This document shows, piece by piece, positions 50,649-52,955 of a DNA stretch of 64,000 nt; position 1 is the first letter of the stretch; each line of letters opens with the position of its first letter. Source of the DNA: Escherichia coli (lineage in GTDB: Bacteria; Pseudomonadota; Gammaproteobacteria; Enterobacterales; Enterobacteriaceae); assembly GCF_050920415.1 (NCBI RefSeq), contig NZ_CP169309.1. The stretch is one strand, 5' to 3'. The position numbers and the translations under genes were made by a program. The notes under the pieces are model-generated. The model made no database searches, had not been told where the DNA came from, and worked only from the letters and a program-made list of their open reading frames with translations.

Positions 50649-51263
<615 letters not shown>

Positions 51264-51283
51264 TCTTCAACAGGAGGATACGC

Positions 51284-51511
51284 ATGCCAACTCAAGAAGC
51301 GAAAGCTCATCACGTCGGTGAATGGGCATCTCTGCGCAATACGTCGCCGGAAATAGCCGAGGCCATTTTCGAAGTCGCCGGGTACGACGAAAAAATGGCG
51401 GAAAAGATTTGGGAAGAAGGTAGCGATGAAGTGTTAGTCAAAGCCTTTGCTAAGACCGATAAAGATTCGCTTTTTTGGGGCGAACAGACCATCGAACGTA
51501 AAAACGTTTAA
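51284..51511 (+). CDS. yccJ: small protein YccJ
   Basis: 75 aa ORF, 20 nt after wrbA; recognised as YccJ. Confidence 0.9.
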
Positions 51512-51518
51512 TCCTGAA

Positions 51519-51547
51519 CCTCCCCCGTGGTGAACGGGGGAGTTTTC
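51519..51547. terminator. intrinsic terminator after yccJ
   Basis: ctcccccgt ggtgaa acgggggag stem-loop followed by TTTTCG. Confidence 0.65.
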
Positions 51548-51888
51548 GATTATTCATTGACCAACGTCTCATGCCCTGTTATTACTGTGAGATATTCAAT
51601 CACGTTATCAAATAAAAAAATCGATATCATTGCGGTAAGCTTGTTATTGATTATAAATATGGGTAATAAGCGATATCCAGCATGAATTTGATTGTACAGA
51701 GTATTTCCTATATAGCCATTGGTTAAATCTTGAAGATAAGATACCTCCGGCTGAAAAATCCATCCCGGCAATGAAGGATGTGATATTTTCGTAATTCTCT
51801 TGCAGAATAAACAACCCTGGATACGCTCTGAATACAAGGAAATTTTCCAATAAATTATTTATTCATCAATACTCCCCGGCGAGGATCA

Positions 51889-52407
51889 TCAAAATATCTC
51901 ATTATCTTTTAAAACTGCCCAGCCCGTTATAACGGACGTTATCTGGCGCACGCTGAAGTGGGCATGATACTCACTTTCATTAAAATGCTCGACATGATTT
52001 GCTAATCGCTTAGCTAGATAATTGACGTTCAGTCTGTGCCAAATTTTTAGCGAAAAATAGCAAATTTCAAGCCGGGAATTTATCAAAGCATCCTCATTTA
52101 CTTCACCATGAACAATAAAGTCACGCATAAACTGCAGGTGTTTAATTAATAAAATCCATTCACTTTCAGTAAGATAGTTTTTCCCACGCAGATTATAATA
52201 CAGAGATTTGATTAATGGGATCTTCTGCTTATGGCGCTTTGACCGCGCTGAGCACAATATTTGTTCTATCAGGCCAAGCGTCCCTTTCTGACGCAACCAG
52301 CACCGGAGTTCAGACTGCGCGCTAATGCCGCGAGCCACCGACAAATGTATTTGGGTAAGCAATGCGTATAAACCTAATAAAAACGCGTCGTGATAATACC
52401 GCTTCAT
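51889..52407 (-). CDS. hypothetical protein, 172 aa, downstream gene of an AT-rich two-gene islet; no family recognised
   Basis: ORF-track ORF; start preceded by aaggtgg 3 nt upstream and only 12 nt after the stop of the upstream ORF. Confidence 0.55.
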   Translation of the reverse strand: MKRYYHDAFLLGLYALLTQIHLSVARGISAQSELRCWLRQKGTLGLIEQILCSARSKRHKQKIPLIKSLYYNLRGKNYLTESEWILLIKHLQFMRDFIVHGEVNEDALINSRLEICYFSLKIWHRLNVNYLAKRLANHVEHFNESEYHAHFSVRQITSVITGWAVLKDNEIF

Positions 52408-52419
52408 TACCCACCTTTG

Positions 52420-52788
52420 TTATCGTAATTTTTTAAACAAATAATCATATAAAATTTCGGCAATGAATTCTGCATGTTCACGTCGCACAATGACATTCAT
52501 AACGTAATATTGCGCAGCAATTTCATTGATAAAATGTTCAGGCAGTATGAATACGCGTGCATAAGCCGAGTATATTTCCAGTATTTCATTTGAGATGTTT
52601 TCAAGATCAACGCAATAATTTGTCACATCATAAAAAAGATTAGCGTATTTTTTATTAATTATGCTAAGGCATATAAATGGGGCATTTAATTTTTCACACA
52701 ATTGCCAGTGCGTTCTTTCATTTTCTCCCTTCCATGTATACTTCATTTTGTCAGCCATCCTTTGATTTACGCGTCTGAAGTTTACCAC
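52420..52788 (-). CDS. hypothetical protein, 108-122 aa depending on start, upstream gene of the AT-rich islet; no family recognised
   Basis: ORF-track ORF; alternative in-frame starts at 52758 (MADK..) and 52746 (MKYTWKG..) with aaagga upstream. Confidence 0.5.
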   Translation of the reverse strand: MVNFRRVNQRMADKMKYTWKGENERTHWQLCEKLNAPFICLSIINKKYANLFYDVTNYCVDLENISNEILEIYSAYARVFILPEHFINEIAAQYYVMNVIVRREHAEFIAEILYDYLFKKLR

Positions 52789-52955
52789 TGTGTCTGGGGT
52801 AAACCATGCGTTCTATGGTAAAAATTATACGAGATGTGGCGCTGCGTAATATTCTGCTCCCTCAATATATTTCTGGTGAATATGTTCCAGGTTAATTGGG
52901 AAGATCTGCATGTGATCTTCCCAATTTTATGACTACAAAATGTCAATAGCCGGGT

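What the first reader, a model, noticed from the sequence alone, without database searches (positions are those of the whole stretch)
51889..52788. Two translationally coupled small ORFs forming a compact operon
The upstream ORF (108-122 aa) ends with TAA at 52420..52422. The downstream ORF (172 aa) starts 12 nt later, preceded by aaggtgg. That layout is typical of two-component modules such as toxin-antitoxin, effector-immunity or small defence pairs. The upstream product is acidic and probably helical; the downstream product is basic in stretches (SARSKRHKQK) and rich in His and aromatic residues. Neither has a signal peptide or TM helix that I can see. The function assignment is speculative.
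Basis: inference. Interest (0 to 1): 0.7.

Follow-up and report, generated by a model that had tools for sequence, protein, structure and literature searches.

The report
Toxin-less orphan Rhs immunity gene islet
The two small genes are real, but they are not a toxin and its antidote: each resembles a different "antidote" (immunity) gene that normally sits right behind a different Rhs toxin fired by rival bacteria, so this rare 1.4-kb Escherichia islet is most likely a small stock of spare antidotes without any toxin.

Summary
Two tightly packed minus-strand genes, A (52746..52420, 108 aa) and B (52407..51889, 172 aa), are separated by 12 nt containing AAGGTGG, and both are under purifying selection (dN/dS about 0.2). 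They lie in a 1.4-kb AT-rich islet between agp and yccJ, present in 5 of 5,426 complete E. coli genomes and at the same site in E. albertii and E. fergusonii. The ancestral unit has three genes, A-B-C; C is a pseudogene in this window.

The "two-component module" reading is not supported. Relatives of A (52-54% identity) always start 3 nt after one Rhs toxin tip, including a full VgrG-adaptor-Rhs locus in E. coli. Relatives of B (30-37%) start at the stop codon of Rhs proteins carrying a different, Tox-ART-HYD1-like tip in Citrobacter, Salmonella, Enterobacter, Proteus and E. coli, or stand alone. The two families never co-occur outside this islet. C matches small Streptomyces proteins, one directly behind a polymorphic toxin. 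No toxin remnant exists in the islet or window, and no islet-bearing genome carries either tip.

Best reading: a toxin-less array of orphan T6SS/Rhs immunity genes. This is a known kind with unnamed families. Protection itself is untested.

The parts
51555..52955 (.). AT-rich accessory islet (about 1.4 kb, GC 0.33-0.41 against about 0.5 in the flanks), inserted between the agp stop codon and the yccJ/agp bidirectional terminator. K-12 has a 37-nt spacer at this position.
   Evidence: Composition; alignment with the empty K-12 site; present in 5 of 5,426 complete E. coli genomes; same site in E. albertii and E. fergusonii.
52420..52746 (-). Gene A, 108 aa (alternative upstream GTG at 52788 gives 122 aa). 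Orphan member of an unnamed Rhs-immunity family whose relatives abut 'tip A' of Rhs proteins.
   Evidence: ORF; PGAP CDS; dN/dS 0.09-0.26; 54% identity to Phytobacter WP_125124879.1 and 52% identity (E=2e-38) to the gene after a full-length E. coli T6SS Rhs. These relatives start 3 nt after the Rhs stop.
52411..52417 (-). Shine-Dalgarno-like AAGGTGG inside the 12-nt A-B spacer, 3 nt before the B start codon.
   Evidence: Read directly from the sequence.
51889..52407 (-). Gene B, 172 aa, basic, all-alpha. Orphan member of an unnamed immunity family paired elsewhere with Tox-ART-HYD1-like Rhs tips ('tip B').
   Evidence: ORF; dN/dS about 0.2; remote homologues; homologues start at or overlap the stop of Rhs proteins in Citrobacter, Enterobacter, Proteus, Salmonella and E. 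coli; AF2 pLDDT 79.
51568..51868 (-). Pseudogene of gene C. It is intact (100-105 aa) in a divergent E. coli lineage and in strain N3; here it has frameshifts near both ends and an internal stop.
   Evidence: Three-frame translation and tblastn; intact copies in L006-L008 and L002; dN/dS about 0.3 between intact copies; profile match to small Streptomyces proteins.
51520..51542 (.). GC-rich hairpin: the yccJ/agp bidirectional terminator, displaced by the islet. It is the only strong terminator-like site downstream of the A-B-C unit.
   Evidence: Terminator scan; the same hairpin abuts agp in K-12.

Best explanation
The finding is part of a small, toxin-free array of orphan immunity genes against Rhs-type polymorphic toxins delivered by type VI secretion. 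The array is A, B and a decayed C. Each product is inferred to bind and neutralise one incoming toxin tip. B would act on an ADP-ribosyltransferase-like (Tox-ART-HYD1-type) tip, and A on a different, uncharacterised basic tip of about 95 aa. Both tips are carried by Rhs effectors of competing Enterobacterales, including other E. coli. The genes do not act on each other. They are co-transcribed cassettes sitting between agp and its terminator. The islet is an old Escherichia accessory element that has been lost from almost all E. coli, exchanged between species through its conserved flanks, and eroded gene by gene. Shown here: gene reality, purifying selection, homology, the positional association of each family with its own toxin tip, and the absence of any toxin. 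Inferred: immunity activity, toxin specificity and expression.
For: 1. The genes are real. dN/dS is about 0.2 for both genes across E. coli, E. albertii and E. fergusonii lineages.
2. The B family sits behind tip B. P0010 (37% identity) starts at the stop of a 1,487-aa PAAR-DUF6531-YD-shell Rhs in a VgrG-DUF2169 locus of Citrobacter. P0012 does the same in Enterobacter, followed by Imm15 genes. P0015 in Proteus, P0020 in Salmonella, and a 171-aa E. coli CREC-544 protein (30% identity, E=3e-20) also abut Rhs C-termini.
3. The tips upstream of B homologues are mutually homologous (52-58% identity) and give a weak Tox-ART-HYD1 Pfam hit (i-E 8.9e-4).
4. The A family sits behind tip A. The Phytobacter homologue (54% identity, E=3e-30) and its copies in six fetched loci lie 3 nt downstream of Rhs fragments carrying one conserved tip. 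They sit inside arrays of recognised cassettes: Ribonuclease/Barstar, AHH/Imm43, TNT, Endonuclea_NS_2/SUKH, Imm8, Imm26. In E. coli JNE120442 the order is VgrG, DcrB-like protein, 1,531-aa Rhs, A-type gene (52% identity, E=2e-38).
5. The families are independent. A and B are unrelated and never co-occur outside the islet.
6. There is no toxin. No similarity to either tip and no DPxGL core motif was found in the islet or the 64-kb window, and DNA similarity to cognate modules is confined to the inside of the A coding sequence. The 24 tip-B and 3 tip-A E. coli genomes do not include any of the 5 islet carriers.
7. C is related (hhalign 96%, E=1.5e-9) to small Streptomyces proteins. One lies 12 nt after a polymorphic-toxin HINT protein and another lies beside an SMI1/KNR4 gene.
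8. The concept has precedent: an in-silico orphan immunity islet in S. Typhi (PMC7400221), an experimentally protective orphan RhsI in Serratia (PMC10539506), and AID arrays in Bacteroidales (bioRxiv 10.1101/471110).
Against: No experiment shows that any member of the A or B family is an immunity protein; the assignment rests on gene position. Identity to the nearest toxin-linked relatives is modest (A 52-54%, B 30-37%), and immunity is usually allele-specific, so the toxins actually neutralised, if any, may be unsampled variants. Neither family matches a named Imm family, TriTu or any solved structure. The A model is poor (pLDDT 60). No consensus promoter was found upstream of A, so expression is not shown. 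The three genes are packed 6-12 nt apart with no toxin fragments between them, which differs from the usual orphan arrays and leaves room for a shared function other than immunity. Several lineages show decay (C here, B in N3), so the islet could be a relic without a current role. The evidence for C is the weakest: tblastn E=0.03-1 before profile comparison, and mixed contexts.
Confidence: 0.68

Rival explanations
1. A and B form a cognate two-component module (toxin-antitoxin, or an orphan effector fragment plus its immunity protein) in which one product is toxic and the other neutralises it.
For: Tight 12-nt spacing with a Shine-Dalgarno sequence, and an acidic/basic pair (pI 5.9 and 9.5), match the typical layout of such modules. 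Orphan Rhs tips with immunity genes are common, and orphan Rhs modules have been reported to behave like type II TA modules in Salmonella (PMC7043789, title and abstract as listed).
Against: Each family occupies the immunity slot behind its own Rhs tip elsewhere. They never co-occur outside the islet. A has no similarity to tip B, no Rhs core or DPxGL remnant, and no homology upstream of its start codon. No TA, toxin or defence family matched either protein. In strain N3, B is truncated to 120 aa while A stays intact, and in the cognate loci each gene exists without the other, which does not fit mutual dependence.
Confidence: 0.05
2. The islet is a decaying relic. The genes once served as immunity genes beside an Rhs locus that is now lost, and they currently have no function.
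For: C is a pseudogene here and in E. fergusonii and E. albertii-type copies. B is truncated in N3. An IS element sits next to the islet in E. albertii. The islet is absent from more than 99.9% of complete E. coli genomes. No consensus promoter was detected.
Against: A is intact in every lineage sampled, and B in all but one. dN/dS of about 0.2 holds even between deeply diverged alleles (dS 0.3-0.5), which shows selection over most of their history. The near-identity of B between this E. coli and E. fergusonii (dS 0.04 against 0.12-0.33 in the flanks) suggests recent spread rather than passive decay.
Confidence: 0.2
3. A-B-C is an operon with a function unrelated to interbacterial immunity (for example anti-phage defence or regulation) that has recruited immunity-like folds.
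For: The three genes are packed unusually tightly, without toxin fragments between them, at a conserved chromosomal site in three species. Small AT-rich accessory islets often carry defence genes (general knowledge).
Against: No PADLOC, PHROG, Pfam or NCBIfam match. No enzymatic or DNA-binding motif is evident. All detectable relatives of A and B are in Rhs loci or orphan-immunity arrays.
Confidence: 0.07

Closest known systems
Orphan Rhs immunity genes (RhsI-type), e.g. SMDB11_2280 of Serratia marcescens Db10 (PMC10539506)
   Same: These are small cytoplasmic proteins homologous to the gene found immediately downstream of an Rhs C-terminal toxin, and the host carries no cognate toxin. The Serratia case shows that such an orphan can protect against T6SS-delivered Rhs toxin.
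   Different: The Serratia orphan is 88% identical to the cognate immunity protein and lies inside the T6SS/Rhs1 locus. Here identity to the nearest toxin-linked relatives is 30-54%, the genes lie far from any Rhs or T6SS locus, and protection is untested. The families are unrelated in sequence.
Putative T6SS/CDI immunity islet of Salmonella Typhi (PMC7400221)
   Same: Both are chromosomal islets in Enterobacteriaceae made mostly of orphan immunity genes whose homologues sit in T6SS/CDI toxin loci of other bacteria. Both have a restricted phylogenetic distribution, and both were inferred in silico.
   Different: The S. Typhi islet has 14 genes and includes T6SS/CDI gene fragments. The islet here has 3 genes, contains no toxin or delivery fragments, and is inserted into a 37-nt convergent intergenic spacer.
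Acquired interbacterial defence (AID) gene clusters of Bacteroidales (bioRxiv 10.1101/471110)
   Same: Both are arrays of immunity genes without toxins, and both move between species. Here the islet alleles are incongruent with the flanking genes.
   Different: No mobile-element or recombinase gene is present here; exchange appears to occur by homologous recombination of the flanks. The array is also much smaller and the phylum is different.
TreTu/TriTu Rhs ADP-ribosyltransferase-immunity pair of Salmonella (PMC9825190) and RhsA-Tox-ART-HYD1 candidates of SPI-6 (PMC10469887)
   Same: Tip B, the partner of the B family, gives weak hits to Tox-ART-HYD1 (i-E 8.9e-4) and to TreTu_C and the TreTu chains 7zhl/7zhm (E about 0.04-0.3). 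The SPI-6 survey lists Rhs-Tox-ART-HYD1 effectors whose putative immunity proteins have no known domain, and a B-family member (P0020) occurs in such a Salmonella Rhs array.
   Different: B has no detectable sequence similarity to any solved chain (the TreTu chains 7zhl/7zhm were found only with the toxin tip) and does not match the Pfam TriTu family. In the structure search its model matched only generic helical bundles. ART activity of tip B is only predicted.

Membership tests
Orphan polymorphic-toxin (Rhs/T6SS) immunity genes | Homology to proteins encoded immediately downstream of a polymorphic toxin C-terminal domain | tested here: met
   A: 52-54% identity to genes starting 3 nt after Rhs tip A. 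B: 30-37% identity to genes starting at or overlapping the stop of Rhs tip B in five genera. C: profile match (96%, E=1.5e-9) to a Streptomyces family, one member of which lies 12 nt after a HINT polymorphic toxin; this is the weaker case.
Orphan polymorphic-toxin (Rhs/T6SS) immunity genes | No cognate toxin encoded next to the gene or in the same genome | tested here: met
   No tip-A or tip-B similarity and no DPxGL motif in the islet or the 64-kb window. None of the 24 tip-B or 3 tip-A E. coli genomes is among the 5 islet carriers. Caveat: the genome-level test used blastn, which detects only about 65-70% or higher nucleotide identity.
Orphan polymorphic-toxin (Rhs/T6SS) immunity genes | The product binds and neutralises the toxin and protects against delivery by an attacker | not testable with these tools
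   Needs co-expression rescue and competition assays.
Cognate Rhs effector-immunity pair (including orphan Rhs-CT plus immunity modules) | A toxin domain preceded by an Rhs core end (PxxxxDPxGL) lies immediately upstream of the immunity gene | tested here: not met
   A has no Rhs core motif and no similarity to either tip. The region upstream of A has no homology to the cognate modules.
Type II toxin-antitoxin module | The two genes co-occur as a conserved pair across genomes, and one belongs to a recognisable toxin or antitoxin superfamily | tested here: not met
   The pair occurs only in the Escherichia islet; elsewhere each family is found without the other. No Pfam, NCBIfam or PADLOC match to TA families.
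Known anti-phage defence systems (PADLOC-DB) | Match to a defence-system protein model | tested here: not met
   0 families at E<=1 for A and B. PHROGs also gave none.
Named immunity families (Pfam Imm*, TriTu PF24689, SUKH/SMI1_KNR4, Barstar, Imm-My6CBD) | Significant profile match | tested here: not met

The most novel reading that the evidence does not exclude
The Escherichia genus maintains, at one fixed chromosomal site (agp/yccJ), a polymorphic, toxin-free 'immunity cassette' of tightly fused orphan immunity genes. It is exchanged across species boundaries by flank recombination and kept by fluctuating selection from Rhs-armed gut competitors (Salmonella, Citrobacter, Enterobacter, Proteus, other E. 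coli). That would make it an enterobacterial counterpart of the Bacteroidales AID systems, built from two or three immunity families that no database yet names. One of them would be the missing immunity family for Tox-ART-HYD1-type Rhs toxins.
Probability: 0.4. Interest if true: 0.45.

Novelty: new member of a known kind. Interest (0 to 1): 0.3.

Why it matters
Orphan immunity genes are thought to shape which strains survive contact-dependent warfare in the gut, but direct evidence outside Bacteroidales and a few Serratia and Vibrio cases is limited. This islet offers a compact, easily cloned test case in E. coli: two intact genes, each with an identifiable candidate toxin partner present in sequenced E. 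coli, Salmonella and Citrobacter strains. It also gives a functional hypothesis for two (perhaps three) 'hypothetical protein' families that have no Pfam or NCBIfam model. These include the partner of the Rhs-Tox-ART-HYD1 effectors, whose immunity proteins are listed as domain-less in Salmonella SPI-6 surveys. It is not a new mechanism.

Tried and rejected
- **Family libraries.** PADLOC, NCBIfam, PHROGs and Pfam on A and B gave nothing significant. The only entries were chance-level hits to Rad10 and DNase_II at E>0.01. C gave nothing in Pfam or NCBIfam.
- **Word-indexed protein search.** It found only relatives of at least 80% identity for A, B and C; those that carry a name are Escherichia.
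- **Genome-contig scan with a B-family alignment.** The second found only Superficieibacter.
- **A structure.** pLDDT is 60 and the five models disagree. Foldseek on that model gave only noise (best E=0.9, Bcl-2/Mcl-1-like hits), which I rejected.
- **Is A a toxin tip?** I tested A as the orphaned toxin tip partner of B. There was no similarity to any tip-B sequence or to Rhs cores, so I rejected this.
- **Are A and B paralogues?** hhalign probability is 0.2%, so I rejected this.
- **PDB sequence searches.** A and B matched nothing. The toxin tip matched only Rhs core ends, with a faint TreTu similarity.
- **Pfam on tip A.** No match, so the activity of A's presumed target is unknown.
- **Promoter scan.** No consensus sigma-70 site lies upstream of A. 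A perfect TATAAT at 52829..52824 (minus strand), without a recognisable -35, was seen by eye only.
- **Phage collection.** tblastn with A found no match.
- **Superficieibacter neighbour.** I first thought by eye that the neighbour ORF was SUKH-like. NCBIfam gave only weak TPR-type hits, so I do not make that claim.

Full report
**1. Observation**

The window around the finding is Escherichia chromosome: rutEFG, ymdF, wrbA, yccJ, then the islet, then agp, a yccE-like gene and cbpAM.

Two ORFs lie on the minus strand exactly as described.
- A ends with TAA at 52422..52420. It is 108 aa from ATG 52746, or 122 aa from GTG 52788.
- B runs 52407..51889 (172 aa).
- The two are separated by 12 nt, 5'-CAAAGGTGGGTA-3', which contains AAGGTGG.

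PGAP calls the same two CDS "hypothetical protein". A is mildly acidic (pI 5.9) and B is basic (pI 9.5).

Both genes are under purifying selection across diverged copies in E. coli, E. albertii and E. fergusonii. dN/dS is 0.09-0.26 for A and 0.17-0.24 for B, with dS up to 0.5. They are therefore real genes, not chance ORFs in AT-rich DNA.

**2. The unit is larger than the finding**

The genes sit in an AT-rich islet of about 1.4 kb (51555..52955; GC 0.33-0.41). The islet lies between the agp stop codon and the hairpin terminator shared by yccJ and agp. In K-12 this spot is a 37-nt spacer.

Only 5 of 5,426 complete E. coli genomes carry the islet; essentially all the others have the empty site.

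The islet occupies the same site in E. albertii and E. fergusonii. In a divergent E. coli lineage (L006-L008) and in strain N3 a third gene C (100-105 aa) follows B by 6 nt.

In the window C is a pseudogene, with frameshifts near both ends and an internal stop (about 51868..51568). In N3, B is truncated to 120 aa. The ancestral operon is therefore A-B-C, and it is eroding differently in different lineages.

**3. Neither protein matches a named family**

- PADLOC, NCBIfam, PHROGs and Pfam gave nothing significant.
- The word-indexed search of 5.8 billion proteins returned only relatives of at least 80% identity; those that carry a name are Escherichia.
- An exhaustive HMMER search with B found remote relatives at 27-38% identity. 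They come from Citrobacter, Salmonella, Enterobacter, Superficieibacter, Xenorhabdus and Proteus, and all are annotated as hypothetical.

**4. What B's relatives do**

Several B relatives sit directly behind Rhs proteins:
- P0010 (37% identity) starts at the stop codon of a 1,487-aa PAAR-DUF6531-YD-shell Rhs protein in a VgrG-DUF2169 T6SS locus of Citrobacter werkmanii. Orphan Rhs fragments and small genes follow it.
- P0012 does the same in Enterobacter, followed by two Imm15 genes.
- P0015 (Proteus) follows an Rhs C-terminus by 4 nt.
- P0020 sits in a Salmonella Rhs array that also contains TriTu and Imm43 genes.
- In E. coli CREC-544 (and 23 other E. coli genomes) a 171-aa protein, 30% identical to B (E=3e-20), overlaps the stop of an Rhs fragment.

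The toxin tips upstream are all homologous to one another at 52-58% identity. They give a weak Pfam hit to Tox-ART-HYD1 (i-E 8.9e-4) and fainter hits to TreTu.

The gene immediately downstream of an Rhs C-terminal toxin is, by the established paradigm, its immunity gene (stated for example in PMC10539506). Other B relatives stand alone, in Superficieibacter, Xenorhabdus and Proteus L022.

A Salmonella SPI-6 survey lists Rhs-Tox-ART-HYD1 effectors whose putative immunity proteins have no known domain (PMC10469887). That is consistent with B belonging to this unnamed family.

The AF2 model of B is confident (pLDDT 79, pTM 0.78) and all-helical. It matches only generic helical bundles in the PDB. 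In AFDB it matches its own family plus uncharacterised Bacteroidota proteins.

**5. What A's relatives do**

tblastn against plasmids found a 54%-identical protein (E=3e-30) on a Phytobacter diazotrophicus plasmid. It starts 3 nt after a 384-aa orphan Rhs fragment. That fragment has YD repeats, a DPIGL...DPLGL core end, and then a basic tip of about 95 aa with no Pfam match.

The same protein recurs in many assemblies. It is always directly behind that tip, and always inside long arrays of recognised orphan cassettes: Ribonuclease/Barstar, AHH/Imm43, TNT, Endonuclea_NS_2/SUKH, Imm8 and Imm26.

In E. coli JNE120442 the arrangement is VgrG, a DcrB-like protein, a full-length 1,531-aa Rhs, and then an A-type gene 52% identical to A (E=2e-38). 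Its tip is 90% identical to the Phytobacter one. A therefore also belongs to an Rhs immunity family, but one partnered with a different toxin.

**6. A and B are not partners**

- They are unrelated (hhalign probability 0.2%).
- Across all 43 fetched loci, A-type genes always abut tip A. B-type genes abut tip B or stand alone. The two families co-occur only in the Escherichia islet.
- The islet and the whole 64-kb window contain no similarity to either tip and no DPxGL Rhs core motif. DNA similarity to the cognate modules is confined to the inside of the A coding region.
- None of the 24 tip-B or 3 tip-A E. coli genomes is an islet carrier.

The A-B pair is therefore neither a toxin-antitoxin module nor a cognate effector-immunity pair.

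**7. Gene C**

C has only close Escherichia relatives by word search. tblastn gave marginal hits to small Streptomyces proteins, and a profile-profile comparison supports the relationship (96%, E=1.5e-9 over 90 columns).

One of these Streptomyces proteins lies 12 nt downstream of a "polymorphic toxin-type HINT domain-containing protein", and another lies beside an SMI1/KNR4 gene. The other contexts are uninformative. This suggests that C is also immunity-like, but it does not prove it.

**8. Evolution**

Islet alleles do not track the flanking genes.
- Window against E. fergusonii: B has dS 0.04 and A 0.18, while wrbA has 0.25 and agp 0.33.
- Window against the divergent E. coli lineage: the islet has dS about 0.35, while wrbA and yccJ have 0.02-0.04.

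This pattern fits an old, genus-wide accessory module exchanged by recombination through conserved flanks and lost from most E. coli. The sample is small, so this remains an inference.

**9. Mechanism proposed**

A and B, and formerly C, are orphan immunity proteins. They would bind and block incoming Rhs toxin tips delivered by the T6SS of competitors.

Shown: gene reality, homology, positional association with two distinct toxin tips, and the absence of toxins.

Inferred: neutralising activity, specificity (identity to the linked relatives is only 30-54%), and expression. No consensus promoter was found. The genes lie between agp and its displaced terminator, so read-through from agp is possible.

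**10. Comparison and novelty**

Orphan immunity genes and immunity islets are an established concept: the S. Typhi islet (PMC7400221), the Bacteroidales AID clusters (bioRxiv 10.1101/471110), and the experimentally tested Serratia orphan RhsI (PMC10539506).

This is a new, small member of that kind, built from families that Pfam and NCBIfam do not yet model. Interest is modest. Its value is as a compact test case and as an annotation for the immunity partner of ART-HYD1-type Rhs toxins.

Noticed in passing
window 54489..55742 (-): A 417-aa AT-rich (GC about 0.33-0.35) ORF lies between agp and cbpA. PGAP annotates it 'hypothetical protein' or 'YccE family protein', and it had no Pfam hit in the precomputed tables. 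It is a second low-GC patch right next to the islet.
   Followed up: no
window 52956..54197 (agp) compared with 50667..51511 (wrbA, yccJ): agp in this window is unusually diverged from K-12 (dS 0.23, 95% nt identity), whereas wrbA and yccJ on the other side of the islet are typical for within-species comparison (dS 0.02-0.04). This suggests a recombination boundary or introgressed segment next to the islet.
   Followed up: partly
window 52898..52922: A perfect 9-bp inverted repeat, GGGAAGATC-(7 nt)-GATCTTCCC, lies 34 nt past the agp stop, inside the islet. On the plus strand it is followed by AATTTTAT. It could be a weak replacement terminator or a regulatory hairpin. The terminator scan did not call it.
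   Followed up: no
L003 6928-8299 and L004 5643-7014 (E. albertii): An IS3-family element (HTH_Tnp_1/rve) is inserted between the remnant of gene C and yccJ in E. albertii copies of the islet.
   Followed up: no
L030 6844-7998; L043 2714-7309: The Rhs tip partnered with the A family (about 95 aa, very basic N-terminal part...DHV[IM]KH...HYMAKFDK.GRMTHVTDYKIKD) has no Pfam match. It appears to be an uncharacterised T6SS toxin domain, and it is present in at least 3 E. coli genomes on a full-length Rhs.
   Followed up: partly
AFDB hits to the B model: A set of roughly 165-195-aa uncharacterised proteins from Bacteroidota (Chryseobacterium, Hymenobacter, Chitinophaga, Flavobacterium) resembles the B model (TM about 0.55-0.64, 15-20% identity, E 1e-3 to 7e-2). 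They may be distant members of the same immunity fold. Their genomic contexts were not examined.
   Followed up: no
L042 1531-2801 and L043 8715-9494: The E. coli Rhs arrays that carry the cognate modules lie next to integrase/XerC genes and to HigA and SymE-type addiction-module genes. The toxin-bearing versions therefore sit on integrative islands, unlike the toxin-free islet.
   Followed up: no
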